Assembly (NCBI GenBank): GCA_040954595.2
Contig: CM082592.2
Span: 4,356,735-4,420,734, forward strand
Source of the DNA: Balanoglossus misakiensis
Taxonomy: Eukaryota; Animalia; Hemichordata
Direction of reading: 5' to 3'
Length of the DNA stretch: 64,000 bases
A program made the translations under genes and the position numbers. Positions 3,001 through 62,112 of this stretch are shown here, one piece after another. The notes beneath the pieces were generated by a model that saw nothing but the letters and a program-made list of their open reading frames with translations, had not been told where the DNA came from and searched no databases. Each line of letters begins with the position of its first letter. The first letter of the stretch is position 1.

Positions 3001-3520
3001 TCGGAAAGTCGAAAAATTTTCATTTTTTGATGATTTTCATGGGCTATAACCCTTGATTTTATTCCAAAAATCAAGAAATTTTGATATTTCGGAAAGTCGA
3101 AAAATTGTCATTTTTGGATGATTTTCATGAGCTATAACCCATGATTTTTCTCAAAAAATCAAGAAATTTTGATATTTCTGAAAGTCGAAAAATTATCATT
3201 TTTTGATGATTTTCATGGGCTATTACCCATGACTTTTTTCAAAAAATGAAGAAATTGTGAAAATTCGCAAAGTCGAAAAATTGTCATTTTTTGATGATTT
3301 TCATGGGCTATAACCCATGATTTTTTTTTAAAAATGAAGAAATTTTGAAAATTCGCAAAGTCGAAAAATTGTCATTTTTTGATGATTTTCATGGGCTATA
3401 ACCCATGATTTTTTTCAAAATATCAAGAAATTTTGAAAATTCGCAAATTCGAAAAATTGTCATTTTTTGATGATTTTCATGGGCTATAACCCATGATTTT
3501 TTTCAAAATATCAAGAAATT
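1..3520. repeat. AT-rich tandem satellite, ~87-88 bp monomer, about 40 copies, truncated by the window edge
   Basis: AAGTCGAAAAATTGTCATTTTT recurs at 11, 98, 185, 273, 361...; consensus ~AAGTCGAAAAATTGTCATTTTTTGATGATTTTCATGRGCTATAACCCATGATTTTTKTCAAAAAATSAAGAAATTTTGAWAWTTCGSA; ends abruptly near 3520. Confidence 0.97.
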
Positions 3521-6469
3521 TGTCTGTGTGTTATATTTGTACAATGTATTGGGATATGTTTTTTTAAAACTATTTATGTGTTCATGTGCCGGTGCTCTAA
3601 GTACAAAATACATATCCTTTTCTTCAGACGAGATACATAAGTGCATATAGTGAGGGACACGTTCATGAAAACAGTTCAGATGGTGTATTGTAGACGGGAA
3701 TATACATCTGGACAATATCATTTTTTGACCCCCCCCCCCTCCGCATTCTGTTGTCTGTGCCTTTCCTACTGGGTCTATATCCCGAATCAATGTGAAACGA
3801 AGTACCCGTTTCACTTTATCAAGAGACCGTGAACCACTTGGTTTAATCCTCTGAACAAAGCCAGGAATAACAGGCCTTAATGGTGGATAGCTTACAGTCA
3901 ATAGAAGGGAAGGGGTCTTAAAAGAGGGCTATCCTCAATGCAGCTGTTTCACCCTGAACCGGGGGAGATTTTCTCAATTGTTGTACGGCTCAGCACTTTC
4001 ACTAGGCTAACTAAATATTATTCCTAGCATTGTCGTCGTCGACACAGATGCAGTACACCAATCGACAAACACAAACAACGCCCAGACACCCTTTGAATTA
4101 GAAAACTGGGCGTAAGATGACGGTCACATGACCAGGCGGTTTAAACAGGCAAACACGCGTTTCAATATAAGCTTATACATATATTTATTGCAAATACAAG
4201 TGTTATCACAAAACATATTATGAATATGTAATAAAACGTTGAAAAGGGATCATCATTAAACAGGATAAAAAGTGCAGTGGTCATCTAATCCAGGATATTC
4301 CAGCCTTTTGCTGAAATGCCGAATGGATTATTTCAAGTTCAATGACACAAAATGACACAGGTTGGCCCGAGCAAGCAAGCCCACCTCGAACGTCACATAA
4401 TCACTGAGCTTACATTGTTCTTACAACTTTTCTATCTGTCTAAAAGTTCGGTCTGCGATCAAACCAAGAAGAATACTGTACGGTTACCGTAAAACGATCA
4501 GTATTGTCGTAAAGTACGACAGGACGCGCATCCCCTCCTTTCTGACCCTGGTGTATACCACCAAGGTCGAATTAGGGCACGTCACCAAATAAGATTTTCA
4601 TAAATAAACACCGCGTCTCTAGTACATGTTACCAAGGGTTAACCCGAATATCAATATTTTACATTCTCGTCAAAGTCTTAATCAAACATACAATCGGCAT
4701 TGTAAGGCACTACTCTTTTCTGAGTCAACATACATTTACTATTATGCGTCATTTTTCCTACGCTTGACATACTCTACAAAGCAATAGACAAATTTCCGGA
4801 CATCGCGATACCCTACGAGATCTCGCGTGGCTAGGCATTTTATATGGTATGACATTCTCATGTGACGCAGTCGCAGGACAAACAGATGACCCATTGTGTT
4901 AAACGTCACTAAAACTACAATTATTGTTCAACTTTGTACCTATTCTACTTTCATACAAAGTTTGAATTCTATCACATGGCTATCAACCCGTTGCTACGGT
5001 AATTAACCAAATCTCGCGAGATCTCGTAATAAGCGGAAAATCATCTTTTGATTTTGAATTTGAGGTGCTATAGTAAGTTATGGTTTGCATTTTTTCCTTT
5101 GCATATATGATACGAGTTGGTCGGATATCTTTAACCTGGATCATACAAATCCAGTTACAATCGATACTCACAGAACCGAAGATTCTTAAAAATGCATTCC
5201 TGAAATTTGTGTTCATTACCGGAGGATTTTGTGAAATGTTCTTCTAGTTTCCAGTTACAGTTGCTACTCTGAATATTGCAAAGCAATCTGTATAACGCTG
5301 TCTGTACTAGGTCAATGTGGATAACTGATGAAAGATCTTCTTTAAATTCGAGTATCGAGCCAATATAGTTCCAAGTTCCATACGAAAACAATCACTTAGA
5401 AACTCAATATTGTCAATACTGGCGGGCTGTATCGTTCTGTTAGTGTTGTGATGTTATACAATAGATGCGACAAACATTCATATCCAAAGGAAAATAATAA
5501 AAGAACGAAGAGAAAATATAGGCAAACACAAAACTCCCAAGTTAATTGTGGAATCAATACGGAAGATTGTCAAAACAAGACGCTGATAGCAAATGACAAG
5601 TTAAGTGTGATACTAAGGGTATATGTAACAGCAAAAAAAATCAGGCGAAAATGATCTTTTGACTGGGTTTTTTGTAAATTAGACCTTAAACGACTCTTGG
5701 GTCGACAATGCACAATGTATATAGTTGCATTCCCAAACATATCATACATTTAAAAATATGTAGACTATAAGATTTGTGAACTAAATATTAAATCACATGA
5801 AAAAAGCTGATCTGAAACGGGCTATCATGCAACCTTAAATATTGTGGATGAAATAAACGTTTGTAATTGAAATTGTCATTCTCGCTTTGTTATACATGTA
5901 ATTTCCTTACTTAGAATAATCGTTGGACTAGATTTGACGTCTCATTAACTAGTTGTTTGCGCAGGCGCAGAACCGTCGACGGATGCCCTTGACCGCGGCC
6001 TTGACTACTAGAATGCATTTGAATTTTCTCTGAACAGCCTTCACTCCTTAAAATACTGAGAATTATTTGAATTTGTTGGAGGGATATAGTAACCCCTTAC
6101 TTGAGTTTTCTTCAAAACGAGACAATACTGTAGATGGTACTTACAAAACAAAATAGTGTGATTTTAAAAACAAACAAACAAACAAACAAACAAACAAATC
6201 AATGAAAGTTAAACGTAGTATCAGAGGCGTTTTTGTAAAATCATCTGTGACATACAACATTTAGTAACAGCCATCGAAAAAATTGAGAAATGTCAAAAAA
6301 TATACATACAATTAACTCAATGTGTAAAAATAAATCTTGCTATGTCAAGTGAAGCATCGAGTTAAAGTGATGATGATTCAAGTAAAGGTAAACAGATTTG
6401 TCGAAGATGTGTCAAAGTTCCAGTACATGTACTCCCTGCCAGGTTTGTAGCTACAGTAGACGAAGTCGT

Positions 6470-24160
<17,691 letters not shown>

Positions 24161-32633: not shown

Positions 32634-35600
32634 GCAAGTAAGCAATCAAGCAAGCAAGCAATCAAGCAAGTGATCGATCAATGATCGCCCAATCAATCAA
32701 TGTTTGATTGACTGGTTGCATGGTTGGTTGATTGTTAAGTTGGTTGGTTGAGTGAGCGTGATTAAACGGGACCAACGGGCCAGTTTTAGTGTGTAGTCAG
32801 TATTAATCGGTTCCACACGCATCAGTATAGCATATACCTACCTCGCGGAGTTATGTGGTCAAAGGCGTACGGACGGGATCTCTCGATAATCTCGAACAGA
32901 ATGATAGCAAAGCTATAGATGTCCCCCTTCTGAGTTCCGTACACGGGCGGGAAGTTCATGCGAAGAAGTTCAGGCGCAGTCCAAAGCTTGCCTATGATAA
33001 AAGAGGGTAAGAGATAATATGTTTAGGCTGATACTGAAATAGTGAAACTTGTGAGGGAATCAACATTAGCCTATCGAGTACGGAATACCATAGTTTCTGG
33101 GAAAATACATGTAATACTCGTCTGAGAGCCTGGGCAGAATTAACAGGTGGCTGGTGCGATGATGACAAACCATAAACAATGTGTTCTGTACTGTTTCCAT
33201 TCCTTTCATGGTGTTTTAGACCCTTCATGGGTGCACCTTTAAATTTTCAAAAATACCTTACCCAAATAAAGTTCATGTTCATCGGCATTAACGTTTCTGG
33301 CTTGACCCTGCATAAAGCTCTGGAGACCGTAGTCGGTGATTTTCACCACCCATCGGCTGTCAATCAGGCAGTTGGATGATTTCAGGGTGCCGTGAGACCC
33401 GTTTCCGTGTTTGCTCTTGTGCAAGTACTCCAGTCCCTATGGAGGCATTGACAGAAGATTGTGAAATTGCTGTCAGAGCCGTTACAGACGTTATATGCTG
33501 AATGGCATCATACTAGTATTTGCAGTTTTGCTGAATGCACAGATTGTATCGTCGCTAGACATTTTCGTATTTTCAGACAAAGGTCAACAATGCCTGAAAG
33601 CATCGACAATTAAACGCCCACGATTACCTAATGCGCATGTGCGTAATTTCGTGTGTACAAACATTACGTCCAATCCAAATGTTCTGCAAATTTTGCGTTC
33701 GACGCATGCAAATAGTGGACTGCCTTCGCTTCCTTTCATATTTCATGCGTACCATATAAGTAGCCTCTTGTTTTATCCCTGACCCAATTTTCTTTCTTTT
33801 CCCGATCTGCCTTATAGCAATGACTGTATACATTTTTTTGTTACCAGAGTCTCTGGTTTGGCACATGCGCATGAGACGATCGTCGGCCTTTAAACTTATT
33901 TTTGTCACCTTTATTATATCAGCGAAGAAAGAAACTTTGAAGGCACGGTCGAGTTTGATGTCGTCATTCTCCAACACATCCTGTTGAGGAGACAGAAAAG
34001 GCGTCAACATTGGAGTACTTTCCACATATTGTCAACAGTAACACTGCATTTGGCAAACATATTCGAAGGAAAATAATTCTAAGGAGTGAAAGGGCAAGAA
34101 ACGTCAGCGACAGCGGGTCATGTGATGATACCAATTCAGTTTCATTTTCTTCAAAGGTTGGTTCAACCTCTGACCTTGCCTGTGGCAAGGTTCACGTTGG
34201 GAATCATGGCCCATAAATATACATGCAATTTAAACGAAATTCTCGCTAACTTAAAATAGCTTTTATACATGATTGGAGGGGTCAAATCACATAATAATAT
34301 CAACACATTGGTATTTGCTCTGTCACAAAATTCCAGTTATGCAGTATGATCAACATCAATTTAACTTATGAACGACGACCATCTTGAAATTTTGTCGACT
34401 GCTTGAGAATTTTCTCACTCACCTAGGTAGTAAAAAAACTACTTAATTCAGTGATGGTATATGAAAATATGGGTCGGGGATATTCAATCATTGTCTATAG
34501 CTAGCAAAGTATAATGCGCCTCGAAATTTAATGCTTTTTTATTCAAAAGCACGTCACAAGGTTTTAGTACAAGGTAAGAAATAAGATTTTTTTTATCTTA
34601 CAGACGTCTCGAGGCGCATGGTACCTTGTCGAAATTTACATATAGTACCTGTAGACTTCCTTTGTGGCAATATTGCCAGACCAGGCAGAGATCGGGATAT
34701 ATAACACAAGCCCCGAAAAATATATTCAGGTTTTCGTGATTGAGTTGACGTATCTAAAGTAGAAATGTAATACACACATTTGCACACAACAGACCAGTTT
34801 CACGACCCTTGCGTGACCTATTTCAAGACGGTGTTTTTGGTGGTATGTGGCGACCGAAGTTCAATTTGTTTGTTGCGACAAACGTCAACATTCCCTGAAG
34901 ATGAGATAGAGTGGAGGGGGGTTCAATTAAAGGGAAGGGGTCGTCGCGCCGCGTGGGTGTCCCTCTTGTTGAGAATATGTCCTCCCATACCAGCACAAAC
35001 CCCACTACAGTCGCCACGACCTACTAGGATCTGCAGTTGCTGTCATGCCCAGTCTACGCTACGGTTGGCTGCTTCGTTCATTCTAAGAATTATCTTATTT
35101 GAGGGATTTGTGGATGAATTGTAATGTTTATAAACAAACAAACGCGGCGTGACGACCCCTTCACTTTAAGTGCAAGTGCAAGGTCGTCGAAGAGGTTTCA
35201 AAGAACTTTGAACTGGTGGATTCATACCAGCAAAAACAACTGCATGGTTGTAAGGTCACGTAGAGTCCATGAAAATGGCGGAGAACAAACAAACTACCTG
35301 TAGGCTCCCTCTGGCACAGTATTGCCACACTATGAAGATGCAACCGGGATCCACGCATGCGCCGACGAAATTGTTCAGGTTCTCATGATTTAACGTTCGT
35401 ATCTGGACGAGAAAAATCGCGAATTACAATGGTTGTACCATGACACAGGGCAATACGATTGAGCTTGCACAGTCCGCCATCTTCTTGTCACTCATGTGCA
35501 CTGCAGCGATTAGTTGTGTACAATTTGAGAGTTGTCAATGTTATCATAAATTAATGCATGCATTCGACACGCGAAATGTGATTTTTACCCCCCCCCCCCA

Positions 35601-38600: not shown

Positions 38601-41600
38601 GTCTCCTTATCATAATTTCGAATGTGTACAAATTCGCCATTGCGGAGAAATATCCCACAATACCCTGCGTGGTACTTACACGCGTTCCATTTTCCAGGTT
38701 CAGTATTTCAGATATCTTCTCGAAGATTCCATTAGATTTCAAGTCTGTAATCCAGTAATCTGGTTCGCGGTCGCCAAACTCGTCCATGAGCAGGTTACCT
38801 GTCATCCCTTGCGAATAAGAGGGTTTGGAAGGAAGGACAACATTAAACTAGTCTGTCATTTGAAATGTCTAAGAAATTTGCATTGTATTCACGGAGGTGG
38901 TCGTCTTGAAGTCTTGGTTGTGACGTCACACGGCGGCCATTTTAATTTGCTCAGAATCCTGACAGTATGGCAACTCTGGCTGCGTTAAATAGGTGTGTAC
39001 AACTCACCGTAGTAAGGGTTTGAAGAAATGATGTATTAAAACATTCTTTCTTGTATTTAACATATTAAACTCATTGAACTTTTCTTTTTCACATTTTGTC
39101 ACTTTTTACACAAAGTTTCAGAATGACCCAGTATCACTTTAGCTAATGAACTTCCAAAAATCGGCCATCTTGAAATTGTGTCGACTATATGAGATTTTCA
39201 CCACTCACCTAGGTAGCCAAAACCTATTTAAGATAGCGAGAATATTGGCGCATACCTTACCCTTTGCACGGCGCTGCCAGAGGTAGAATTCGGACAGGGG
39301 AAGTTTTACTAGTACCCTATTCAGACTTGGACTGATGAGGGCGTTGTTCAAGTGGCTCGTAGAATTTGAATTCAATGATTTTCTGTGAAAGTGCTCAAAC
39401 TGCAATCGCACTTACCTTTGAAAAATTTCCCAGACATAGCCTGCAACATCACTTCGCCATCACGGTAATCGTTGCCATTGGATACAGTCTCGTTGAGTGC
39501 GATGACGTAAAGTATTAGGGCATCGTGGAGAAAGGCGGCGTACTTATTACCCTGCGGTAAATCAGAGATTGGAAACACGTGACAGTGCACTTGGTTCTCG
39601 CATCATATACCTGGATGTTACGTCCCTGTATAACTCTATATAGGTACGTGCAGTTTTTTCCTTTGTTATGTACTGTGTGTTTTGGGGGTGTATAACAGAC
39701 CAACCCGGTTCGGTTGCGAGCCCAAATAACATCGGCGCGCATTCCTGAACTATTTTCTTTCTCATTCCTCCGCGCGCGTTGTGTTATCCGTAAACGTTCT
39801 GTCCGTAAAGCGCATTAGCTCGCAGGCCTCATCATGGCTTTGATGGTATAGCTACGCGAAAAGCTTGCGACAATGACCAAGCGGGAACTATATCGTTGCA
39901 AATATTAAAAAAAAAAATTGTGGCTGGCCAAATTTGGCCACCCACACACGTACATACATAAATATACTTACACCTGATATTGTTCGTAAAGTTGACCCAC
40001 TCTATAAATATATAAATGCAGGAATGCGTTTTAGATCTGTTATGAATATCGGTCGCTCACCATAGCCGTGGAAATTTGGTTCCCACTGATCATGTATTTG
40101 CCGGTTTCAAGGACCCCCGTCAACAATGTCAACAGCAGAAAAGATGAACTCGACCACGACCATGACTCGACAAATCGATCTTGCCGCTGTTTGTTTTTTT
40201 GCACTGACACCGACAACGTTTTTAATGACAACTTCTGCGGATGGTCGAGAACGATTACTTGCAACGCTATCAGTCCTAGGTCTGCAACTGTGTGACACAT
40301 CATCTCCCGCAACATATTGTGCGACGTGCCAACAATTTTAGTGAATCGACGCGTCAAAAAGATCCGTCACGCGAAGATATTCAGTTCATATCTGGAGCCA
40401 TTATTAAACCATTGTTGAATCACTTTTCTTCAGACCTGACACTAAGACACTGTGCCATCAAATTCACGCCTACGTCAATTATATTTGTATTGCAATACTA
40501 TCCAGTATGGCCGATAGGCGGCCATTTTGTTACGATTTTTCATGTCCAGAGCACTTTCATACACTTCGCGACACAAACCAATATGGTCGTCCGGTGGCCA
40601 TTTTGTTTTGATTTATTGTCGTCTGGAACAATTAATCAGACATATCTGAGCCGACATTGGCATAGATATTATATTATACACGTTCAATTTGTGACATGAC
40701 ATGATCCGATATGATTTCATTCCGACAATATGCTTGCCTATCACTCAAAACTGCCAGAACCATTTTATAGTTGACTCACGGGTATAATCGCGTTTGACTG
40801 AAGAGCTATGGCGTGTTTGTGTATTTCAGTTTGCATAATAATATGTACAAATGTGGCTGCCAGGTAGCCATTTTGATAAATTAAACACGATCCAGCGGGA
40901 ACTATGTCATTGACAACAATGACATTGTTAAGCCTTGGCTACTGTCGTTGCAAATATTTAATATTTTTCCTTTTTGGCCGGCCAGGTTTGATCACCTACA
41001 CACACGTACATACATGAACATACTTACAGCTGTTATTGTTGGTAAGGTTGTGAGTGACCCATGCTATAAACAAATGCAGAAATGCGTTTTAGATCTGTTG
41101 TGAATATCGGTCGCTCACTATAGCCGTGAAAATTTGGTTCGGGTTGGGAGAAAGGAATCCCACTCACTCCCCTCCTTTGCCTATAGGTGCATGCCAAGAA
41201 ATGCGCAAAAACGTTTTCAATGTCCAATACCTTGATCCCTTCCTGTAGAGTCTGGTTCCAGGGGGCGTCCTGTAAACGACGCGCCACTTCAATTGTGAAA
41301 TCGTCGATTTGTCTGCCACTCAATGCTGCCAGCGAGACCTGGGAACATTAAAGGTACACTGGCTCTAATTTTTGTTATTTGGTCATTTGATTTTTTTTCT
41401 GAAAATGATGAATATAGAGATCAATAGAACTCGTCCAAATTTCATATTAGTTACCAGATACCTGTCCACACCCTTCAGCATGGATTCAATAACTGTACAA
41501 GTTCACACTTAAAGATGACACACTTACATGAAACACCGACTCAAATGCCTGCCTGGCTTCATCGTTTCTTCCGTCGTCTCCTAGATACGTCTCCTCCGCC

Positions 41601-47454: not shown

Positions 47455-50400
47455 TTATGCAAATTTATGCAAAGTCGACGCGGTAGACGGCTCATCAGCT
47501 GTCCCCTCCTTGTAACCGTCACCGACATCGCTGTTGTCGACGCTATTTTCCCTGTGGGACAGAAATCCGAAAAAGAGAGTGGTTTTCATATTTGCATGCA
47601 ACTTGGTGGTTGACATGTCTGTGTATCGCGACGAGGCAGAGTGCGGATGGTCTGCTGATGACACGCAAATGCATTGTGATGTTTTTGAATGCATTGTGAT
47701 TTTTTTTCAGGCACAGCAGTCGATGTCGAGCTAGCGGAAGAGAAAGACCGCAACTTGAAACATCTACTTACTGCCCACCACCGCCTTCCGCAGCGAAGTC
47801 ACCGCCGATATTCGGCCCCCTTTTGAACTCACTACAAGGAAGAAAGAACAGGAGAAAGTTAAAAGGGACCAAATCGGGGGACCACTTGCACTTGAAATAC
47901 AGGTGAGATATAGGTGTACCATTCAACGGCCATTGTGTCAGCCGTTGAAGGCAACAATATAAACTGTCCTTACTTGGATATCTTCGGAAGTGGCTTTTTG
48001 AATCCATCCTTTCCATGTAGAAAATAAGTTGCTACCATGCCCTTTCCCTGAAAAATACAGATGAAAATGATTAGAGGGAAAGTCATTTTACATATAGCAT
48101 TGTCATTTGAATCGCCGTATTCAAATTAGCTCATTACTATGCAGAAATGTATCAGTGACTATGGACGTCCATTTCCAGGACGTAGATTTAGACAAAATAG
48201 ATTCAAAGATCCTTCAGATAGGATCTTAAAGTCAAAGTCAAAAGTCACAGGAGAGAGCTGAAATCCCACCTTCACATCGATATCACCACGAGGCATCATG
48301 TGGTAACCGGCATTGCTGTCACAAAGAGCTGTGTACGACTGTTTGCTGATATGAATATGGCACGCTTCAAACCAAAGAAAGGTATAATTATTGGGGAGTT
48401 ATAATTAATTAAATAATTACTTATTTATTTATTAATTACCTGCGTATTATTTATTTATTCATTCATCCAATTATATATTTCTTAAGTTGTCTGTTTGTTT
48501 GTCTATTGGTTTGTCTGTCTGTCTGCTTATTATTCATCTATTGATTGATTGATTAATATATTTGTTTGTTTGTTTTCTCGTTTATTTATTTATTTTATTT
48601 ATTTATTTATTTATTTATTTACCCTTGCCAGTGGATTCCATTCGGGACGCAATATTGACGGTGTCTCCAAACAAGCAATAGCGAGGCATGACCAGCCCGA
48701 CCACGCCGGCCACAACAGGTCCCGTATGTACGCCAATGCGCAGCTGCAGTTTCTGTTTGGGTCGGTGACGTATCTTGAACTTAGTGACGGAGCTGAGCAA
48801 GTCCAGTGCGCAGTCGGCGATCTCTGTCACGTGGCGATGTCCGTTGCGGTGAGGCAGCCCGGACACTATCATATAGGCGTCACTGATCGTCTCGACCTTT
48901 GAAGGAAAAAAGAATTGGAGAGAGACTTGGTGTTGAAAGTTACGAACAATACATCACTGACGTTAAGTAAAACCTCTTGAAATTGACAATTGTAGAAGTG
49001 GGTTTTCTGGCAATGAGTGACCAATTCCGCACGTTTGTACTGAGCGTATATCCTTTTAGGATGTATGTTCAGTAAAATTGAAAGAATTGTCATTTCTTTT
49101 AATTGAAAGAAATTACCTTGTAGATATCATAGTTGGAAATGATGTCATCAAAGCAGCGATATAAGTCATTCAGAAAATCTACAATCTGCAAAACGAAAAC
49201 AAATCGAAATGATAATTATAAAGAATATAAACTGTGTGGAGCTTTAATTTTAATTATACAGTCCTATACCTGGAACTATGCTCGAGTGTCGAGATATTGG
49301 AACGGTGTGAACTTTCTGAGGTGAGACATGTTCGCGACGGATTCAGAACACTGTGTTTGCGATTGTCATCTTGCATTGGGGTGTGCTGTGTGCACATGAA
49401 CACTGTGAGGCGCGAATCATTCTACTCCTATTACCTGGAATGGCGTACTCTCTGACGACAATGTCGAAAACCCGACAATGTCCGAGAAGTAGATGGTCGC
49501 GTTGTCGAAGTTTTCGGGGTCCACCTTTTGGTTCATCTTCAGCTGTTCTGCAACCGTCCTAATAAAGACACACAGATGTATCTAGATGCGATTATTTTTT
49601 CACCACTACAAAGGCACATAGGCGAGTCGCCACAAATACACAACCCATCGCGCTTCAAATAATTAGTATTCATCCATCTGGAAATTGTCATAGGCGTCTT
49701 TAAAAATATTTAACCCTGTCGTGAAATTGAAATGAAAAGCGAGAAAACAGCAGCGGCGGGATGCAAATATCTAGGGACATTTCAAATGTAAAATCATGTA
49801 AGTGTAAATTGAAATCTTTGTCCAACCGCGCATCAAATGCATGCTAGCTCTTTGTCAACAAAGCTGTACACTTCCTTATCAGTTTCCCTTACGATGGCAG
49901 CATCCTGTACAACAGACGATCAGTCTTCCGTTTTTCCTCCAAGACTTGCTCAGTTCTTTCTTCAACTATCTCCTCCAAACTGGTGGAATATTTCTCCATC
50001 ATGGTCAAAATATTATCCACGATGTTAATTCTGTGGGTTAAAGGCACACTATCACCGCCAGTTTACATATCCCAATAGAATTGCTTAGGGCGTGTCAGTA
50101 ATCCTCGTGGATGGTACACTTTCTTTCACGTGGCCACCCAAGCGAAAAACTGTGATTGGATGGGTTTCTAGAGCACGATTCTGGCACCTACAGCATCGTG
50201 CCGTTAAATGGCTCAAGAATGGAATGGGTCTTTATCAGTAATTAAAACAACGACGAGAATATTGATGTTATAAAACAATCCTAGAAAGGCCCAAATGCAT
50301 AGAATTGTCTATAGTGTATTAAACTGAAATGGAGCTGGTCCATAATTATGCAACCCTCCTGCTGAAGTATAATACTCACTCTTTGCCGAGAATCGCCTTC

Positions 50401-52441
50401 AAGTCTGTCCGTATCTTGGTAAATGTCGGCCTGGCGTCGCTGTTCTCGCTCCAGCATCTGTACATCAGGTCGAGCACGCCGTGGTCAAAGTCGATCCCTT
50501 CCACGCCGATCTGTGACGTGGGTCGAAAAGGTGTACTCTCGCCATTTCGGATACGATTGACCACATCTGTAACAAAAAATAGAACACGCCGGGTGACCCA
50601 TCGACCGAATAGCGATAAACTTGCCATGTATTAGTCTGCTGAATGAAATATGGATACAAAAAAAAATTTAGTAATTAAAGCTCCATAGCTGTAACTTTGC
50701 GCCATGTTTTCCATATTTTGTTTGGTGTATCTACTGCGGTTTCTTGTTCAAATCCCTGAAATATGATGAAATGCCCAGGCTATATGTTGGCACTCGGAGT
50801 ACTGGGTGTATTATCATGCTGTTTGGAGTAGAACAGAACAGAACAGGACATTGCATTTGCTGCACAGAACAATAATACTGAAAATAAAGCCAAAAGTTAC
50901 ATCTAAGGTCCCTTTAAAAAGTCTGTGCACTTTCCCCTTTAAATGGCACAGTACTGGAACTAAATGATAACGTAGGGCCAGAAAGACAACATTCATCTAC
51001 AGATACAATCCTGACAGTTTCATCGGTGCTCACCTCGTGGAGTTATATTGTCGTACACGAAGGGCGGGGCTCGTTGGACAATCTCATACATGATTATAGC
51101 AAAACTGTAGACGTCGCCTTTCTGTGTGCCGCCCGGAGGAGGAAAGTTCATGCGAAGGATTTCTGGAGCTGTCCAAACCTTACCTGAAAAAAGAGAAGTG
51201 AATGTGAGAAAGAATAGCAAAGAGTGATTTCTACCGTAAGCACACACTTGCGTAAAATATAAGCAACCAGGCTTCAATTTGCCATTTCGTATTTTATACG
51301 GCTAACGCAATAAGAACTATTCTGGGGTTACAAGACACTTTATAGTGTTTGTAAAATAGATTCAATTCTGCAATGCTTCCCTTTAAATATTCTTCCTGGA
51401 TTTCACTGGGAACGGTGAGGGGTGTCTATACAGTAGACTTACACATGAACCTCTCCTGGTCGTCGATGTCACTCGAGGATTGGCCTTGCACAAAACTGGG
51501 CAATCCGTAGTCTGTCACTTTGACAATCCATCGGCTGTCCACCAGACAATTGGACGACTTCAGGCTGCCGTGGGCGCCAAAGCCGTGCCTGCTCTTATGC
51601 AAATATTCCATTCCCTGCGAAAAAGGATAAAGGGAGAGACTCAGGACCGGTACCGTTAGATGTTTGCCTATTGGAGATGCCCATGCATGTGCTAGGTAGT
51701 CCAAAATTGCACTGTTCTGTTTCTCAGTCTCCCAGCAAGAAACTAATATTTCATAGATCCTGGACTGGCAGAGGTTAATGACATCCGGGTCAAACATTCA
51801 GTTAATTTATATCATTGTCATCGCCCAAACCCCTAACCCACCGTTTTATCAAACCACTCACCCAACTTCCCTCCCTCCCCCCCCCCGGAGGCCATCTTGA
51901 AAATGTGTCGACCATATGACATTTTCACCACTCACCTAGGTAGCAAAACCATATTTAAGGTAGCGAGAATTGAGATCAGGTTTCAAGAAACTCAATAATG
52001 GAATTGCTATTGTTGAGAAGGCGATTAATTTTACCTTTACTGTATCAGTCATGAAGGATATTTTGAAAGTTGAATCTAGTTTGATATCATCATTCTGGAG
52101 GACGTCCTGTAAAAGACAATATGGGTTATATTCACAAACATTTGGACATATGAATAGCGTAAGATAAAAATAACGAACAACTCTTTCTCTGTGTAACAAC
52201 CAAACAAACAACAGACAGCAGTTTGGACATTGGGCTAGACCTAAGTGTCAATTACAGAACCGAATCATCCTACCTGTAAACTTCCTTTGGCACAATATTG
52301 CCAAGCTAAATAAATGCTGCCCGTCTCAACGCATGCACCAATGAAAGGATTCAAATTGTCGTGGCTCAACTGCCGAATCTAAAATAAATTTAGAAAGGTT
52401 GAATGTTAACTTTTAATTTTATTCATGATGGTGATGATGAC

Positions 52442-52509
<68 letters not shown>

Positions 52510-55500
52510 GACTGCACATACTCATACATACACAAACACACATACATACATACATACATACATACATACATACATACATACATACATACATACATACATA
52601 CATACATACATACATACATACATACATACATACATACATACATACATACATACATACATACATACATACATACATACATACATACATACATACATACATA
52701 CATACATACATACATACATACATACATACATACATACATACTAAAATAGATGCGTGCAGGTCACGTACACCAAGTGTTTTGCAGCGTGGGGAAATGTAAA
52801 AGAAAAAAGATAGAGGATCACACGACTGCTCTTAGGTTGTTCATCAATATGATGAGTTTACAAAGTTTCGACGTTTCACCCCATGATTAGGGCTTATTCG
52901 TGCATATTTAATTATAACTAACCTCATTAAACTCAAGCAACACGGCCCTGTTAACCTGAATGTGTTCCTTGTTGATTTTCTTCAGGGCGATAGAAACACC
53001 TCGATACGTGGCTGTTCTGGCGAAGTACTGCACAGTGCGATTGGATGGGGCTGAACTCTTGCCGTCAAAACTGCGCTGTGAGGTACTGGATGAGTGTTTA
53101 GACATGGCAGATGGCGAATGTGAACCCGAGGTACCCGGCTGTGAGAGAGAGAGAGGGGGGGAAGAGACAATGAGACAGAGATAGAGAGAGAGGGACAGGA
53201 AGAGTATTGCACAAAATATGATGTAACCTACTCCGAATGTTGACGTCACAGAGTAGACGTGACAAATAAGTCTACAGTTTCAAGCAGTCTCTATGAGGAC
53301 ATCGATGGGTGATATATATATGGCCAGAACATTCTCATTTGAGAGTACGGTTAGCGTAACAAAGAGTGGTAGAGGTATTTATTTGCAGGAAACATCCGTA
53401 ACAAGGGCGTGTATAAGAGGTGTGGTTTATCCAAATTGGTGCAAATAATATTCATGCCAATATATGATGAGACATTCAGTGTTGCACCATCAGGTATTGA
53501 CGAAAATTGATACAGATTGAAGGGATATAAAACGTGTGTAAATATTCGTTCTGTATACGTGATTTAAAGTAGATCGCAAGGCGAATGGTGTGAGGTTAGA
53601 TCAAACTGGCATTGTTATGTTTTATCGCATCAACAAAAATACTGAATGTAAATTTCACGCATGTGTCGAGGAAATTTGTCAATATCTTACATGGCTACCC
53701 TTTTCAAGAGAACCGAATTTTCCAAAACTGCCGGAACCTCCAGAGATGAACCGGACCTCTTCCATGTGCACCTTCCATCTCATGTTCAACAGCTCGCCTT
53801 CAAATTTGCTGCGCCTGAAACATAGATGTAAAAAACTAGTTAGAATATTGTCATTTTCCTTATGTTTATATATATTGTTTATCACTTAATGTTAAAGTGA
53901 ACCGACACCTTCCTTGTAGAGAGATTCTAATAAAATCTTTGTGAAAAACATGAGTGATTTGCGTCGTTTTTATTCACTTTCACTTATCGCGCAGCAGCGT
54001 AGCGTCGATCTCGATATGCAGCGTGACGTCACAAACTAGTCACCAGTAGCAGACGCCACCGTGCGCACGCTAACGTACACAGACAGTTGACATGGGTGGC
54101 TGCCTCGCAAGTGGGAGCAAAAACAGAGTTGGCAAAAACACGGCGAAAGGTTTTATAAAAGTTCCCGACCCTTCAGGGACAGTCAAAATGCAAATCGAGC
54201 TGGAAATTGGGTGTCAAACATTGGCATATTATTTCGGTGCTTATTGCTGAGACAGATGATACTTTTGCTTCGGAAATGTTCGTGTTCAACTAGGCCCTAT
54301 ATCGTGAAGCATATTGCAAAAAAAAACTACACAGCAAAAATTGTCGAAACAGCCGGGGCTCCTGATTACCTTTGATCACCATATGACGAAACCGATTTTT
54401 TGGCACTGTAAATCAAAACTCTGATCGGAAGAAAGTAGTGTGGCGGAAATAGGCCTACTAGTGAACACTGTGTTTGTCGCGTACCCAAGCTGTGAATGCA
54501 TCGCAAAACCATTTCCAAAGACAAAAACGACCACCTCTACCATCTGGAAGCACCACAGATGTACTCGAAACATGACAATCGGAGTTTCTGCCTCCCTTTG
54601 ATCAACAAAGCCGCATCTTTTCACAGCTGTTGATCAACGTAAAGGATGGTAGACACGTGTGGTAGACATTTTCGCGAGAGTGTCAATAGGTTTACTTTCT
54701 ATTCTTTTGGGAAATCACGAGGGTGCCTATTATGACATGGGTGACTAAATGTCAAAAATTATCGCATGGCTTCGTGATATGTCGTTCAAGTCTTTATCTA
54801 ACGGCCTTGTCAAGAAATCTATTTCATGGCAGCACCGGCATTCCTTGACAGTAGAAATAACTTCGCATTTACCGCAGCGCAGCTACACCATGAGCGTGAT
54901 GAAAGACGAAGCCGATCACTCTTCTCGATCGTCTTTGCTGTCTACACTTGCCTCTGTACTATTGGAATCAGTTTCACTTGAGTCGCCTACCATCTCATCG
55001 CTGCTGTATTCGGGTTCGTACAAAAATCCGACGATATCTTCGTTTGAAAACTCCATATCGCGTGGTCGTTTTTGTCTTTGGAAATGGTTTTGCGATGCAT
55101 TCACAGCTTGGGTACGCGACAAAAACAGTGTTCACAAGTAGGACTATTTCCGCCACACTACTTTCTTCCGATCAGAGTTTTGATTTACAGTGCCAAAAAT
55201 TCGGTTTCGTCATATGGTGATCAAAGGAAATCAGGAGCCCCGGCTGTTTCGACAATTTTTGCTGTGTAGTTTTTTTTTGCAATATGCTTCACGATATAGG
55301 GCCTAGTTGAACACGAACATTTCCGAAGCAAAAGTATCATCTGTCTCAGCAATAAGCACCGAAATAATATGCCAATGTTTGACACCCATTTTTCAGCTCG
55401 ATTTGCATTTTGACTGTCCACCGAAGGGTCGGGAACTTTTATAAAACCTTTCGCCGTGTTTTTGCCAACTCTGTTTTTGCTCCCACTTGCGAGGCAGCCA

Positions 55501-58500
55501 GCCATGTCAACTGTCTATGTACGTTAGCGTGCGCACGGTGGCGTCTGCTACTGGTGACTAGTTTGTGACGTCACACTGCATATCGAGATCGACGCTACGC
55601 TGCTGCGCGATAAGTGAAAGTGAATAAAAACGACGCAAATCACTCATGTTTTTCACAAAGATTTTATTAGAATCTCTCTACAAGGAAGGTGTCGGTTCAC
55701 TTTAAGGACAGCGCATAAGAGCACTTTTCTTGCGGTAAAAAGACATATCATCGATCGTGAATGTTTTACTTACCGGTATAACCAAATGCCAAGGGTTGTA
55801 ACCGCGCCGGCCACAATAAAACTGGCGGCAAAGGCAGCAACGTAGATGGATGCATCTAACAAAAATAGACGTGGCTTTAGACTGTCATTTTCTCGTACGA
55901 ATGTTTTTGCTGAAAGGCCGACAATCGTCTCATGCGTATGTGCCAGAACAGTATATACTATACTTACAGTTATTTCCTTTGCACCCCGAAAAGCCGCACA
56001 CGGGCGTGTCCGGCGGGGCGTACTGGTGCCCGACCTTGCCACCCGGCCACCGAGGTTCCCGAAGCTGGCGAAACACCTGAAACAGAACATTGAAACAGCT
56101 TTCAGTCCAGCTGCGCGCGTCCCTCCCACAGAATGGTTCGAACGCGTTGCTTCGGACTCCCGCCAAATAGGTCATCACAGAACATGCAGGAGGTCGTTGG
56201 TGACCGTCTCTAAGGGCAGTTTATTAATTCAATAGTCAGTGTGTCGACCTCATTTCTATAGACTGCAGTCTATAGAAAGTTGTTCAAACTAATAGCTCGG
56301 TGATTGGAAAGTATCCGCGACCATGGACAAGTCAAATGTATGCGTGCTGTACTGTTAATGGACCAGTGAGTCAACACCTTATGTATATACACGTGTCATT
56401 CTTTCAGCATCGAACAAGATGCGGCCAGTGAAGATATTATAAATCTGATTGTTATCCCCAAATAACGCCTGTTGTACCCCAATAATGCCTCATCTTACCC
56501 TTGTACCATTATCCAAGTTCACAACTTCAGAAATCTTCACAAAGACGCCGTTCGGTTGCAGATCTGTGATCCAGTAATCCGGCTCCCGGTCGCCGAATTC
56601 GTCAATCAGGACATTTCCGGTCATCCCTGCAATAAGTTTTGACAAATTTAGTGAGATAATGTTTGCAGAAACGCTGTGTTCATAACTAATATAATGGTAA
56701 CATTTAGCATAGCAGAACTATAATGTGTTAATCAAGAACAATATTATCGCCTATACTATTAGTTCAATGTAATGCACTTTAGCACATCAATGTTGTGTAA
56801 TCTATATAAATCAATTTGATTATCTGAAAACTAATGTTTGTTGATTTTTGCAGTTTCCAGTATGTTTCACACCATGGCCAATGGTTTTCGTGTAATTAGC
56901 AAGAAAGATTACACAACTTGCGATTTTTAAGAGAAGCATAGTGGTAAAGGATTGTACCAGCTCTGAAGCTCACTATTATATACCTCAAATTTTAGACATC
57001 TTGCCAATCACAAATTTTTACCCTAGGCCAGGCAAATTAAAAAGACACGTCTTTTTATGCACTGTATATGGCCAAATGATAATTAGTGGTTACCATTTAC
57101 CATGGAAACCTTCAAATGCCGTAGTTATGGTTACCAAGTGATCTGCAGCGGGCCTCCCTGTGGTGTATCAAATCAAAACCGCACTATCGATCGTTGGAGC
57201 AGATTAATGTACAATTCTTTAAAAAACCCAAATGTCAACTGAGAGACACTTTGCTACCTTTGAAGAATAAACCGGAGAGAGCGTTTGCGATAATCGTGCC
57301 ATCTCTGTAGTCGAGACCCTGTGACACTGTCTGATTTAGAGCAAGCACGTAAAGAATGATGGCGTCGTACAGGAAGGGGGCGAACTTATTGCCCTGGAAG
57401 AGAGAGAAAGGCATAACGAGCTCGTCTTAGAAAACGGTGAAGAGTATATACGACAAGTCGGTGTCCAATCCTGTCAGAGACCCTCATTTTGCGTGATAAC
57501 TGGAGCCCATCAAAACTCAATCTGGTTAAAATCAGGTGTAGGGTACGCCGACGTCTTTTACTTACACGGTACGGTATTCTTAACGGTCGAATGTATGGTA
57601 TGATATTATACCGACGAAAACTACCAAGATGGGACGCAGGCATAGTGATCGTAAAGGGGTTCGCATAGTGAATGTCGCAAGACAGACGGCTTTACCCAGC
57701 TCGGTTGCCCCATTTTGATGACTTCAATGATAACGGGCTAGAGTAACGATATAATGAGGGTCTCAGACAGAACTAAGCGTTTTCACAGAGGAGCCACTGC
57801 CAACCACAATTGAAGGTAATTCTCGCTCACCAGTCAATGGGTACTAACATCGCCTCTTGCGTCACAAAAAGACAATTATCTGACAACATTTCACATTGCA
57901 ACCTTTAAATGCCGGTGACAGTGGCTCTTCTGGGACTGCCACATGCGTGTATAGTACCTTTGAAGAATTTATTTCGCATAGCGTCGAGCATAACCTCGCC
58001 ATTTCTATAATTTTTCTGAGCAGCGACAGTTTCGTTGAGGGCGAGGATGTATAGTATCATAGCATCATAGAGGAACGCAGAATACTTGTTGCCCTATCAA
58101 AAGATAAAGGGTCGTCAAATTCACATTGTAGAAAAAAAATACATGTATTATGTATATATTTCCGATTCTCACATTCGCTTTATATATTACCTCCCAGAAG
58201 AAAGCCCAGTATAACGTTTCCCAGGTATAATCTTTGATAATAAGTACCTGACTGTATTCCTGTCATTTAATTTCCTTGAAGTAAAAGAACATGGAACTTA
58301 TGCAGTTGTTATTAATTGTGAATTTAATTAAAGTCACCAAAATATATGTATGTATTCCAAAATTGAAATTCGGTGAGCGAATATAAGTTCGCGACGTACC
58401 CCCTCCCCTCCATAAGTTTATGGACTTCGCATTTTGAACTTCAGCAACAATCTTGGACAGTCCCGAAGTTGTCGGCGATAGGCCAAGTTTGGCCAATCTC

Positions 58501-61500
58501 TTTGCCATGGATGAAAGAACAGAAGACGCGTAGCGAGCGAATCTTTAAAGGGACATTAGCTGTAACTTTTGGCATTATATTCAGTATTTTTGTTCTGTGA
58601 AAATGCAATGTCTTGTTCTACTCCAAACAGCGTGCTTAGATACCCGCAGTACTCCGCTTGTCAACATAGCCTGTGTGTGTATAAACCCCACTGTTATTGT
58701 TGACAAATGAACTCTAGTCCGGGCTTGAATTCAAATTTTGCACAATAACACCGCTGACTATATACATAAAGGTTATGTTAATAAATTGAATACTAGGCAT
58801 TCTAACATGCTTCAGGGATTTGAACAAGAAACCGCAGTAGATACACAAAAGTAAAATTACTGAAAAAATAGCGAACGGTTACAGCTATGGGGCTTTAAAT
58901 TGGTCTCACCTGTGAAAATGCTGAGAAGGTTGCCTTAAATATGAAGGATATATGGTTGTTGATAAACAAGATAATTGTTCCAAAGAAGCTGCTAATCGAC
59001 ACTTTATCATCGTGAATTTTTACGAATAATCGCCAAAATCTGTGACGCCATAAACCCGTTCCGTCCATCGGGGAGAACGGTATCTTTTGGGAACGTTTTA
59101 AATATAAAGGAATTTAAATTGCAATGGGTTTCAATTCTATATAGGGCGTATGTATTTTATTGTACACAGGCTGTCAGCATATATATGGCCCGGTTTCAAT
59201 CTAAATTGAAAATCAACATCATTTGGCTTTGTTTCATTACACATTATACACATAAGGAGTATGTGGAGTTTGTCGGCAAAAAATACAGCAAATAAAGTAA
59301 ATAAGAAAAGATGGACTTTGGTGCAGGGCTTACCTTGGATCCCGGTGGAAGGGTCATGCTCCACGGGGGTTCCTCCAACCTCCGAACAACTTCGATCGTG
59401 AAGTCGTCGATTTCTGTGGCTGTTAGCGCCGCCAGTGACATCTATCGGTGCAACAATGAAAGAAGAAATGACCATGATAAAAAGTGTTTCTATGGTGCAC
59501 GTATCCTTGCCGTAACCTATGGAGGTCCATCGTACAATATACGAATCCCATAACCATGCAAATAAGCACACGTATAGTCCAATAACAATTCAAATAAGCA
59601 CGTGGAGTCCAATAATATCACTGTTGAAACTTACGGACAGAACCAAAATATGTGTCGTTAGGTGCGCTAAAATGTGCCGTAGAACCGTGTGTGTGTGTGT
59701 GTGTTGGGGAGGGAATAGGGAAATGGTACTTACAATATATAGGGGTAATTTGACAATTCGAATGCCTAAGAGTAACATACGGGGTTTCACTTGTAGAACC
59801 TACATGGAAAACAGCCTCAAAGGCCTTCCTTGCGTCCTCGTTTCTACCGTCGTCTCCCAGATACGTCTCCGCTGCCGTGATGACGTCTTCATCCGGCAGC
59901 ATCTCCACGGTGTAGAACACGTATTCGCCGTTGGTCATGCCCCTGTCGTGCGCCTCCAGGATCATCTTGCGTCGGTCCATTTTAGGGGCACAAATTACTA
60001 CGACTGCGAAAAAAAACATCGTTTTTGTTGAAGTGTGGTAGACAGTAAGATTAAACAGTAAACATCATGATGTTATAGGGTTCACGTATCAAAACGTTTT
60101 CGCGTGAATAGAATTTCGCGTATTACTGACAATTACTAGTAACTCCGTTATTGTTTGTCCATTTACACGCGTACGCTCTTTCTATATTCACAATGCAATT
60201 ATGCTCCAAGCTTATATAAACATAGGTTAATAATTTCATTCCTTCCTTCCTTCCTTCCTTCACTCACTCACTCACTCACTCACTCACTCACTCACTCACT
60301 CACTCACTCACTCACTCACTCGCTCACTCGCTCACTCACTCATTCTTTATGCGTTTTGTACTCGTTTTAGAAAGTTTACACTCGTTTACTCACTTCTCCC
60401 TTCTCTGCTAGTTTTTTTCAAAATATTTTGGACTTGTCTGTCGGTTGGATTATTGTTGTATGCCACTTCGTATCCGATAGTAACATTTCTTTCCTTGAAA
60501 GTCTGTATACAGGTTTCAACAAATGTGAAATATATAGTTGAGTTACGTAAACATCAAGGTATTCTGTTTGTTATGAAATTGCATCCGGTTGCGACCGGTT
60601 GTTTTATTGAAATTCTTATCCTTGGGTGTTTGGGTGCCGGTACATGTACTGGGGTCGGGAAAGGGATCTCCCAAAATACTTCACAAGCAAACATTTAGAA
60701 AACATGCAGCTTTGAAGTACACACACGAAAGCACGAAAACATTATTTTTGCTCGAGGTACCAGAGTGCCGGTCACGTGACACGCACCTTAACGATAGCCC
60801 TGCCGGCATCGCCGTACATCAGATAAGTCGAATAGATGACAACGGCCCTACTCCAACCGTAACTGTCCATGATCTCCAACAGGAACACACCAAGTTTGCT
60901 GAAGGGTCCCAGGGATCGTCCGAGGGTGGAGTACACCCTTTTGTCGTTGAACTCCGGCGACGTCGCCACCCACGATATGATTGGAATGTTCCAGAACGAC
61001 GCCAGCTGTCCAGCGATGAGACAGGCTGGGGAAAAACCGTGTTTTGTCCGTAAAAATGGACTAAATTTGACTTAAAGGTGGGAGGATGGGTTACATAAAA
61101 TGTTGTGTTTTTTTTTAAATTGCCTTGACGATCAATCACCATAGACTACTGTTCAACACTCCTGAATGTTTCTCCATTGAACATACATGTATAACAAACA
61201 AACAAAAAAACAAACAAACAAACAAAACGAAACGAAACAAAATAAAATATAACCACTCACACACAGCCTGAATTGTCAAAGAAAAGAAAGTCGACCAAGA
61301 AACATGTTTATCGAGTCACATCTTCTGCCCCCGACGTATAATTGATCAAGTACCTACCATCTGAACACGGCGGGCCAATCAGTACATCGACACGTTCTTC
61401 GATGTAAAGATCGACGGCGTAGCCGCCAGCTTGTCTGCTGTTACACTCCGAGTCACGCGTCACGATTCTGTGAAAAATGAACCAAGTATTAAAGTTAATC

Positions 61501-62112
61501 ACATTATCTGGGTCTCATGGTGCATGTATAATGTCAAGGATATCTACAGTTGTATTTTAGGGACTTTTCCCCAGGTGATTTTTTATTATAAATTGTTATG
61601 AATTGCTATTCTATCACTATCTTAGAATTCTGCGTAAAGTATGGCAAACAACATCTCCATAGTGAAAGAAAAATAACACAGAGAGGTGGGTTGATAGGTT
61701 AAAAATTATCAAGACAGGGATATGTAATAATAATGATTCTTTGTTTTAAATAGTAAAGAATATATTGTACACACGATTGCGTCAGTGAAGCTGTAAATTT
61801 TATCTCAGATGCTAAATCGCATTAAGTCTCAGTAGAAGATAGTTTAATATAGTATTAGATAAACTTTGTGGGTTATAAAGTCATCGAACACGACCTGACT
61901 TACTCAAACTCCACTTCTTCGACGAGGTCCAGTTCCTTGATTTTATCGATTGCAATACTAATTGCACCGGCACTCGTCGCTCCGCCGAAATCGTTCAAGA
62001 CTTCGAAGTTGGTCCACGGCACCAAGAAGCCTAACTTGACGTTGATGACGGCCGAGGTGGGTTGGCTGCAAGCAAACGCCAACAGGAGCGCGTTGAAGAC
62101 GCGTACAGACAT
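47455..62112 (-). CDS. Receptor guanylyl cyclase paralog 3 (NPR/GC-A-like), spliced, with a duplicated extracellular-domain exon
   Basis: Exons (minus): 61904-62112, 61358-61467, 60787-61025, 60394-60502, 59804-60003, 59334-59441, [57958-58093 or 57258-57393], 56499-56626, 55968-56076, 55774-55855 (TM), 53691-53814, 52923-53138, 52274-52378, 52035-52106, 51443-51614 (HGSLKSSNC), 51034-51183, 50380-50566, 49893-50030, 49435-49558, 49117-49185, 48623-48896, 48270-48364, 47974-48047, 47772-47831, 47455-47551. Confidence 0.93.
50675..50917. mobile_element. TTAA-flanked MITE (Kolobok-like), family C copy 1
   Basis: TTAAAGCTCCATAGCTGTAAC...GTTACATCTAAGGTCCCTTTAA; homologous in reverse orientation to 58545-58898. 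Confidence 0.75.
52425..52740. repeat. (GAT)n and (ATAC)n microsatellites
   Basis: Read directly; source of the poly-D/M/H/I and YIHT ORFs. Confidence 0.98.
53892..55705. mobile_element. Kolobok-like non-autonomous foldback DNA transposon with ~640 bp inverted arms
   Basis: TTAA at 53892-53895 and 55702-55705; termini AGTGAACC...GGTTCACT; arms 53896-54534 and 55062-55701 are near-identical reverse complements; decayed THAP-like and Cys-rich coding remnants inside. Confidence 0.85.
57258..57393 (-). CDS. rGC-3 alternative exon 7b (tandem duplicate of 7a)
   Basis: 136 nt, phase 0-1; [45 protein letters not shown](G); acceptor TTTCTCTCTCTTCCAG, donor GTAGCA. Confidence 0.9.
57471..57932 (-). 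other. Two predicted intronic RNA stem-loops between rGC-3 exons 7a and 7b
   Basis: 57471-57488 pairs with 57753-57770 (17/18); inner 57541-57557 pairs with 57679-57697 (bulged); second hairpin 57786-57819 pairs with 57901-57932 (core 15/17). Confidence 0.75.
57958..58093 (-). CDS. rGC-3 alternative exon 7a (extracellular domain)
   Basis: 136 nt, phase 0-1; [45 protein letters not shown](G); acceptor CTTTATCTTTTGATAG, donor GTACTA. Confidence 0.9.
58545..58898. mobile_element. TTAA-flanked MITE (Kolobok-like), family C copy 2
   Basis: TTAAAGGGACATTAGCTGTAAC...GTTACAGCTATGGGGCTTTAA; shares TTGAACAAGAAACCGCAGTAGATACAC with copy 1 (reverse strand). Confidence 0.75.
60239..60342. repeat. (TTCC)n-(CACT)n microsatellite
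   Basis: Read directly. Confidence 0.95.

What the first reader, a model, noticed from the sequence alone, without database searches (positions are those of the whole stretch)
57258..58093. rGC-3: duplicated 136-nt extracellular-domain exon (7a/7b)
Seen: two intact 136 nt phase 0-1 exons exactly 700 bp apart, both homologous to the single exon in rGC-2 (39416-39551, [23 protein letters not shown]) and rGC-1 (17262-17397). Both keep an N-glycosylation sequon (NET vs NQT), but the C-terminal halves differ in charge ([13 protein letters not shown] vs [13 protein letters not shown]). Including both or neither shifts the frame, so a productive mRNA must contain exactly one. Inference: two ectodomain variants with possibly different ligand or partner properties.
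Basis: partly seen in the sequence, partly recalled or inferred. Interest (0 to 1): 0.8.

Follow-up and report, generated by a model that had tools for sequence, protein, structure and literature searches.

The report
Twin swappable exons in cyclase receptor
A receptor guanylyl cyclase gene, likely from an acorn worm, carries two old, intact copies of one exon for its outer domain, and only one copy keeps the reading frame, so the gene likely makes two receptor versions by either-or splicing, a known device that related genes appear to have evolved repeatedly.

Summary
Observation confirmed. rGC-3 has two 136-nt, phase 0-1, AG/GT-bounded copies of exon 7. Either copy gives a 1077-aa receptor; both or neither stop at codon 373 or 327. 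The copies are old (24/45 aa identical, synonymous sites saturated) and both are constrained: 0 of 1722 stop-free neutral simulations reach 7b's family fit. Best reading: a mutually exclusive exon pair (about 0.72). It is not shown, because no RNA reads could be examined. The ligand inference is weak: the exon maps to NPR-A 314-358, outside the peptide contacts I read (62-195). Recurrence is the interesting part. Neighbour rGC-2 has a duplicated kinase-homology exon. In unnamed metagenome contigs, exon 7 is triplicated in 1 of 80 loci, exon 8 is doubled in 10 of 36, and exon 9 in 4 of 14. One exon-8 copy is dead, so copies also decay. Introns between both window pairs fold unusually well and carry competing-pairing candidates (suggestive only). 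The scan earlier noted a kinase-domain pair in an Owenia rGC (unchecked). New member of a known kind.

The parts
47970..62112 (-). rGC-3: NPR-like receptor guanylyl cyclase gene (signal peptide, ANF-receptor ectodomain, TM helix, kinase-homology domain, cyclase); 23 coding exons counting one exon 7; 1077 aa
   Evidence: Gene model by coordinates; orthologue group with Glandiceps P0009 and P. flava P0179
59334..59441 (-). exon 6, single copy, ends in phase 0
57958..58093 (-). exon 7a, 136 nt, phase 0-1, NET sequon, weak donor; same type as the exon in the P. flava RefSeq fragment
57258..57393 (-). exon 7b, 136 nt, phase 0-1, NQT sequon, strong acceptor, weak donor, long branch but family-type residues
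56499..56626 (-). exon 8, single copy, enters in phase 1
57394..57957 (-). 564-nt intron between the copies; folds more stably than shuffles (z -2.51, 2 of 100 shuffles as good)
57912..57944 (-). candidate shared RNA element just after the 7a donor; predicted to pair either upstream across 7a or downstream inside the intron (predicted only)
58188..58207 (-). candidate upstream partner 1 (duplex -22.9 kcal/mol); would loop out 7a
58453..58469 (-). candidate upstream partner 2 (duplex -22.3 kcal/mol)
57782..57807 (-). candidate downstream partner (duplex -32.6 kcal/mol)
57467..57774 (-). second long stem, arms 57774-57752 and 57489-57467 (-33.5 kcal/mol, mean pair probability 0.98)
35298..35402 (-). 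rGC-2 kinase-homology exon copy Ka, 105 nt, phase 0-0 (parallel case in the neighbouring paralogue)
34649..34753 (-). rGC-2 kinase-homology exon copy Kb, 105 nt, phase 0-0; 23/35 aa identical to Ka, pS 0.87, pN 0.25
39416..39551 (-). single exon 7 of rGC-2 (consensus donor)
17262..17397 (-). single exon 7 of rGC-1

Best explanation
rGC-3 carries two old, intact, frame-matched copies of ectodomain exon 7 that are likely spliced in a mutually exclusive way, which would give two full-length receptors differing at 21 residues of a segment predicted to lie outside the canonical peptide pocket. Shown: the anatomy, the frame logic, the age of the duplication and constraint on both copies. Inferred: both copies are used in mRNA (about 0.72). 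Likely mechanism: both donors are weak, so each exon is marginal. Messages with both or neither exon carry an early stop and would be removed by nonsense-mediated decay (established knowledge). A predicted RNA element just after the 7a donor may switch between pairing across 7a (selecting 7b) and pairing inside the intron (selecting 7a and hindering 7a-7b joining); I put this switch at about 0.35. The likely effect is tuning of surface, folding, trafficking or partner contacts, not a new peptide pocket (inferred by homology to NPR-A).
For: Frame test. pS 0.75 versus pN 0.31 between the copies; neutral decay at 0.5 or 1.0 substitutions per site kept 40 or more of 45 second positions in 0 of 5000 runs each. 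7b family-profile score 111.9 versus a maximum of 90.4 in 1722 stop-free neutral descendants; third-position changes 27 versus a mean of 7.2, reached in 0 of 3000. 7a groups with the P. flava orthologue exon (SH-aLRT 83), so the 7a/7b split likely predates that species split. Both flanks of the pair are rGC-3 type. Donors of 7a, 7b and Kb outscore only 4, 6 and 4 of 62 reference donors. Parallel old duplicates in related genes: exon 7 x3 in L025 (154 nt each, pS 0.67-0.74, pN 0.16-0.26) and x2 in protein P0017; exon 8 x2 with position-specific acceptors shared across 7 aligned contigs; exon 9 x2. The two introns between duplicates rank 5 and 7 of 35 for folding z. 7a and Ka rank 1 and 3 of 64 exons for pairing across the exon.
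Against: There is no transcript evidence for 7b in any source. The RefSeq relatives found carry one exon-7 version each and no isoform pair. All 17 metagenome loci that span exons 6-8 have a single exon 7, so this duplication is not a family-wide feature. Copies do die: the first exon-8 copy in L021 has a frameshift and a lost donor, and L015, L022 and L065 hold only the second-type copy. 7b has a long branch (0.78 versus 0.25 for 7a), which fits relaxed constraint as well as divergence. Weak exon-7 donors also occur in single-copy loci. Five other introns fold as strongly. The collapsed-distance measure did not separate duplicate from ordinary introns. The 400/120-nt cross-exon window was chosen after seeing 7a, so only Ka's rank is an independent test. 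No covariation test was possible for the window's elements.
Confidence: 0.72

Rival explanations
1. 7b was functional for a long time but is now silent: a recently dead copy that has not yet decayed, with 7a constitutive.
For: Long branch of 7b. The P. flava model uses the 7a type. A decayed copy of exon 8 in L021 shows turnover in this family. A 42-aa insert in an old Saccoglossus model weakly fits a decayed exon-7 copy. At 0.1 substitutions per site a neutral copy still keeps frame and splice sites in 48% of simulations.
Against: 7b has no stop and the stronger acceptor (above 35 of 41 references). It keeps the sequon and all 14 columns invariant among the four window exons. Its residues are family-type.
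Confidence: 0.15
2. The pair is the scar of an unequal crossover that fused two old rGC-3-type paralogues (5' half ending in 7a, 3' half starting at 7b), so the age of the copies reflects the parent genes and one copy is a passenger.
For: Tandem paralogue arrays of this gene exist: three rGC-3-type genes on one Saccoglossus scaffold.
Against: Identity to the P. flava orthologue fragment is 78-88% for exons 4-6 and 79% for exon 8, against 58% for 7b and 71% for 7a. The 5' and 3' trees both place the gene with Glandiceps rGC-3. No second rGC-3-type gene is in the window.
Confidence: 0.07
3. The second copy mainly acts as a regulated poison exon or makes a short secreted ectodomain: joining 7a to 7b stops at codon 373, before the membrane helix.
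For: Frame test. The 564-nt intron gives no linear steric block (threshold under 50 nt, PMC5740500 passage).
Against: A poison exon needs no amino-acid constraint in its original frame, yet 7b is constrained there over its whole length.
Confidence: 0.06

Closest known systems
Tandem-duplicated mutually exclusive exons (human catalogue, PMC5740500; passages read)
   Same: Homologous neighbours of equal length and phase. Length not divisible by three, as in 377 (60%) of the human clusters.
   Different: Not RNA-validated here. It lies in an invertebrate receptor guanylyl cyclase ectodomain; three full-text searches for this combination returned 0 papers.
ATE1 exons 7a/7b, competing R1R3/R3R4 pairing (PMC7797038; passages read)
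   Same: Two-exon tandem duplicate. One predicted element can pair with an upstream or a downstream partner.
   Different: The ATE1 elements are conserved and were tested by mutation. Here they are predictions from one genome rich in inverted repeats.
NPR-A / NPR-C ectodomain (1dp4, 1jdn)
   Same: Same domain family; the exon maps to NPR-A 314-358.
   Different: Ligand unknown. The gene sits in a clade with hemichordate, Priapulus and Paralvinella proteins (SH-aLRT 99); vertebrate NPR1/2 were not in that tree.
Bactrocera eclosion-hormone receptor isoforms BdmGC-1 / 1B (recalled; paper not held)
   Same: A splice variant of a receptor guanylyl cyclase ectodomain, recalled as changing hormone sensitivity.
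   Different: Recalled as an insertion, not a swap of duplicated exons. Orthology to this clade was not established.
Alternative N-terminal cassettes in RefSeq rGC isoforms of P. flava and Lineus
   Same: Ectodomain variation from one gene.
   Different: Those swap the first 240 or so residues, which include the positions of the NPR-A peptide contacts, in another rGC clade. The present pair swaps 45 internal residues.

Membership tests
Tandem-duplicated mutually exclusive exons | Adjacent homologous exons of equal length and phase between single flanking exons | tested here: met
Tandem-duplicated mutually exclusive exons | Either copy alone gives a full reading frame; both or neither do not | tested here: met
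Tandem-duplicated mutually exclusive exons | Both copies under purifying selection | tested here: met
   recent silencing cannot be excluded
Tandem-duplicated mutually exclusive exons | Each copy found spliced to the common flanks in transcripts, never together | not testable with these tools
   no run was available to lay reads from
Tandem-duplicated mutually exclusive exons | Pair conserved in related species | tested here: inconclusive
   No relative's genomic DNA was available. 7a groups with the P. flava exon. Relatives' protein models hold one copy.
Steric-hindrance MXE | Donor to branch point under about 50 nt | tested here: not met
   The intron is 564 nt; a branch-like motif lies 37 nt from its end; a distant branch point was not tested
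U2/U12-incompatible MXE | One U12-type splice site | tested here: not met
   Donors GTACTA and GTAGCA do not match the U12 donor consensus (recalled)
Competing-RNA-structure MXE (ATE1, Dscam type) | A shared element with two mutually exclusive partners | tested here: inconclusive
   Overlapping duplexes predicted for both window pairs; ranks 5 and 7 of 35, and 1 and 3 of 64; distance measure not discriminating
Competing-RNA-structure MXE (ATE1, Dscam type) | Conservation and compensatory changes of the pairing | not testable with these tools
   no orthologous introns held
NPR-like receptor guanylyl cyclase | Signal peptide, ANF-receptor ectodomain, one TM helix, kinase-homology and cyclase domains | tested here: met
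Eclosion-hormone receptor orthogroup | Phylogenetic grouping with CG10738 / BdmGC-1 | not tested
   No such sequence was held. The supplementary file of PMC6660194 is cut and gave no receptor motifs.

The most novel reading that the evidence does not exclude
An orphan bilaterian receptor guanylyl cyclase clade is a hotspot for either-or exon cassettes. Exons 7, 8 and 9 of the ectodomain and a kinase-homology exon have each been duplicated independently in different phyla and kept under selection. In the acorn worm both pairs are switched by the same competing RNA pairing next to the first copy's donor. This gives functionally distinct receptor versions from single genes.
Probability: 0.3. Interest if true: 0.65.

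Novelty: new member of a known kind. Interest (0 to 1): 0.45.

Why it matters
Mutually exclusive duplicated exons are a well-known device, so one more pair is modest. The value lies in the pattern. I found no paper describing such exons in receptor guanylyl cyclases, yet this clade shows them at four exon positions in unrelated animals, with signs of gain and loss. That marks the C-terminal part of the ectodomain, away from the known peptide contacts, as a repeatedly diversified region of an orphan receptor. It gives a ready test of how that region tunes signalling. It also warns that current gene models of these receptors likely miss isoforms. The rGC-2 pair keeps the frame whether both, one or neither copy is used, so it is a clean case for testing an RNA-structure lock.

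Tried and rejected
RNA: no RNA holder was listed for window 55950-60200; this is no evidence on expression, and read laying could not be used. No whole genome is held. The homolog search with 7b alone found 13 candidates and none passed; it was insensitive. AlphaFold of full-length P0009 with an 8-row alignment failed (mean pLDDT 35.5) and was not used; the second job and fold searches were not run, and the two spliced ectodomains were not folded. Assembly artefact rejected (59% nt identity). A chimera of rGC-3 and rGC-2 rejected. No degenerate second exon 7 in rGC-1 or rGC-2. No unusual pairing involving the intron after 7b (9, 14 and 17 of 25 shuffles as good). The collapsed donor-to-branch distance was uninformative. 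None of the 11 RefSeq pairs compared in the first script, nor the Priapulus pair, showed an exon-7, -8 or -9 swap (12 pairs). The orthogroup could not be named: the PMC6660194 supplement file 3 is cut when stored and may bear on this. Chang et al. 2009 and one structural review were not held. The family tree is the quick version on 48 rows (47 chosen hits plus the window protein; most fish GC-G hits left out); the careful search did not finish. Earlier-findings look-ups by sequence and by place returned nothing.

Full report
Observation. The finding is real. On the minus strand, 58093-57958 (7a) and 57393-57258 (7b) are 136-nt exons with AG and GT ends, 700 bp apart, homologous to the single exons at 39551-39416 and 17397-17262. 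All-against-all translation shows three tandem receptor guanylyl cyclase genes, every other rGC-3 exon being single. My coordinate model of rGC-3 (62112-47970) gives 1077 aa with either copy, a stop at codon 373 with both, and a stop at 327 with neither. Profile searches find four copies of this exon in the window and no decayed extra one.

Origin. The best named relatives are enteropneust hemichordates. rGC-1 matches P. flava P0008 at 913 of 1219 aligned residues. rGC-2 matches Glandiceps P0004 and Saccoglossus P0001. rGC-3 matches Glandiceps P0009, a P. flava fragment P0179 and three tandem Saccoglossus genes. A quick tree of 48 rows puts these with Priapulus and Paralvinella proteins (SH-aLRT 99), apart from another NPR1-like clade. 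The ligand is unknown; PMC6878697 (passages) says most non-vertebrate ligands are. Whether this is the eclosion-hormone receptor group could not be tested (PMC6660194 passages and supplements; PMC12393706 passages).

Age and constraint. 7a and 7b share 24 of 45 residues, with pS 0.75 and pN 0.31. A neutral copy at 0.5 or 1.0 substitutions per site kept the observed second-position conservation in 0 of 5000 runs each; at 0.1 it kept frame and splice sites in 48%. Neutral descendants with as many amino-acid changes as 7b scored at most 90.4 on a family profile built without the window exons, against 111.9 for 7b (0 of 1722 stop-free runs), and showed a mean of 7.2 third-position changes against 27. 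In a 29-row exon tree 7a joins the P. flava exon (83) and 7b is long-branched and unresolved. Both halves of the gene group with Glandiceps rGC-3. So both copies were functional for most of their history; recent silencing of 7b is not excluded.

What the swap would change. The exon aligns to NPR-A 314-358 and the matching NPR-C stretch. Receptor residues named as peptide contacts in bioRxiv 2020.07.09.196394 (passages and section 7) run from 62 to 195. PMC13230927 (passages) describes activation as relative motion of rigid monomers and gave nothing on this segment. Of 21 differences, 4 fall in the 18 columns that are at least 70% conserved; 1 residue of 7a and 2 of 7b are unseen among 27 family rows. 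A changed peptide pocket is therefore unlikely by homology. A changed surface or stability is the better guess (inference).

Recurrence. A profile search of 1.84 billion proteins ranked first P0017, an unnamed gene call holding two tandem copies of this exon. A metagenome scan returned 80 loci of animal-type genes. L025 has three 154-nt copies after single exons 5 and 6, pS 0.67-0.74 and pN 0.16-0.26, grouping with each other (87) and so likely independent of the window pair. All 17 loci spanning exons 6 to 8 have one copy. Exon 8 is doubled in 10 of the 36 loci that hold it. Eight have two complete copies (L068 and L069 are identical in protein), with pS 0.80-0.99 and pN 0.10-0.19, and each position keeps its own acceptor sequence across the 7 loci aligned. 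L003's second copy is cut by the contig end and L021's first copy is broken. Exon 9 is doubled in 4 of 14 (pS 0.71-0.99, pN 0.18-0.30). L071 was dropped as a split exon, not a duplicate. In the window, rGC-2 has a duplicated 105-nt kinase-homology exon that keeps the frame in every combination. An earlier scan note reports a kinase-domain pair in an Owenia rGC (unchecked). A 42-aa insert after exon 7 in an older Saccoglossus model, read in a shifted frame, fits the exon profile at 48.8. That is above 400 of 400 shuffles (maximum 48.0) and 400 of 400 real windows, and in the right register, but far below true exons (98-124) and without two invariant residues: a weak hint of a decayed copy.

Mechanism. 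Shown: the frame rule, and weak donors (7a, 7b and Kb outscore 4, 6 and 4 of 62 reference donors, Ka 13), although weak donors also occur on single copies elsewhere. Established knowledge: early stops far upstream of the last junction trigger nonsense-mediated decay; PMC7797038 and PMC5740500 (passages) list this, steric hindrance, spliceosome incompatibility and competing structure as routes (PMC11802352 passages, agree on Dscam and ATE1). Linear steric hindrance and U12 sites do not apply. Predicted: the 7a-7b intron folds at z -2.51 (2 of 100 shuffles as good) and the Ka-Kb intron at z -4.30 (0 of 100). They rank 7 and 5 of 35 introns of 350-800 nt. In both pairs a stretch within 50 nt after the first donor can pair upstream across the exon or downstream within the intron, ranks 1 and 3 of 64 exons. 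Against this, five other introns fold as well, the distance measure failed, one window was chosen after the fact, and no covariation data exist. I give this switch about 0.35.

Literature. Searches for receptor guanylyl cyclase with mutually exclusive exons gave 0 papers. Listings showed none by title or abstract start. Subscription journals are mostly not covered. The Bactrocera isoform precedent is recalled only.

Verdict. Likely a genuine mutually exclusive exon pair (0.72), a new member of a known kind, without transcript proof. The repeated duplication of neighbouring exons in this receptor clade lifts interest to 0.45.

Noticed in passing
window 35402-35298 and 34753-34649 (-): rGC-2 has a duplicated 105-nt kinase-homology exon, old and constrained, with no frame penalty for any combination. 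Its 544-nt intron is predicted to close from +19 to +505 (mean pair probability 0.97).
   Followed up: partly
L005, L008, L009, L012, L020, L038, L068, L069 (exon 8); L027, L029, L036, L047 (exon 9); L025 (exon 7): Tandem duplicated ectodomain exons in related genes, with position-specific conserved acceptors and conserved intronic blocks between the exon-8 copies.
   Followed up: partly
L021 about 1140-1275: First exon-8 copy is broken (frameshift, lost donor): a dead duplicate.
   Followed up: yes
P0197/P0198/P0199, P0239/P0240/P0242, P0243/P0244: RefSeq isoforms of other rGC genes in P. flava and Lineus share the C-terminal part and swap a divergent N-terminal block of about 240 aa, like alternative first-exon cassettes.
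   Followed up: no
P0013 (Saccoglossus XP_006814368.1), insert after exon 7: 42-aa insert that weakly fits an exon-7 copy read out of frame; absent from the newer model P0001.
   Followed up: partly
window 53892-54534 and 55062-55705: 644-bp inverted repeat at 98% identity inside rGC-3 intron 11, likely a recent transposon or MITE-type insertion.
   Followed up: no
window 58544-58899 and 50675-50918: Related short inverted-repeat elements in rGC-3 introns 6 and 17; inverted repeats are common in these introns.
   Followed up: partly
window 1-3521: AT-rich tandem repeat of about 88 bp, about 91% identical between units.
   Followed up: no
window 48896-48623 (-): The rGC-3 cyclase exon has Ser in place of the usual Gly in the ETIGDAY motif, shared with Glandiceps P0009.
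   Followed up: no
L030, L032, L038, L041, L045, L057, L061-L070, L072 and others: In some loci exon 7 appears split by an extra intron after about residue 29.
   Followed up: no
L025 1827-1890: Only 64 nt separate the first two exon-7 copies, close to the range of steric exclusion.
   Followed up: no
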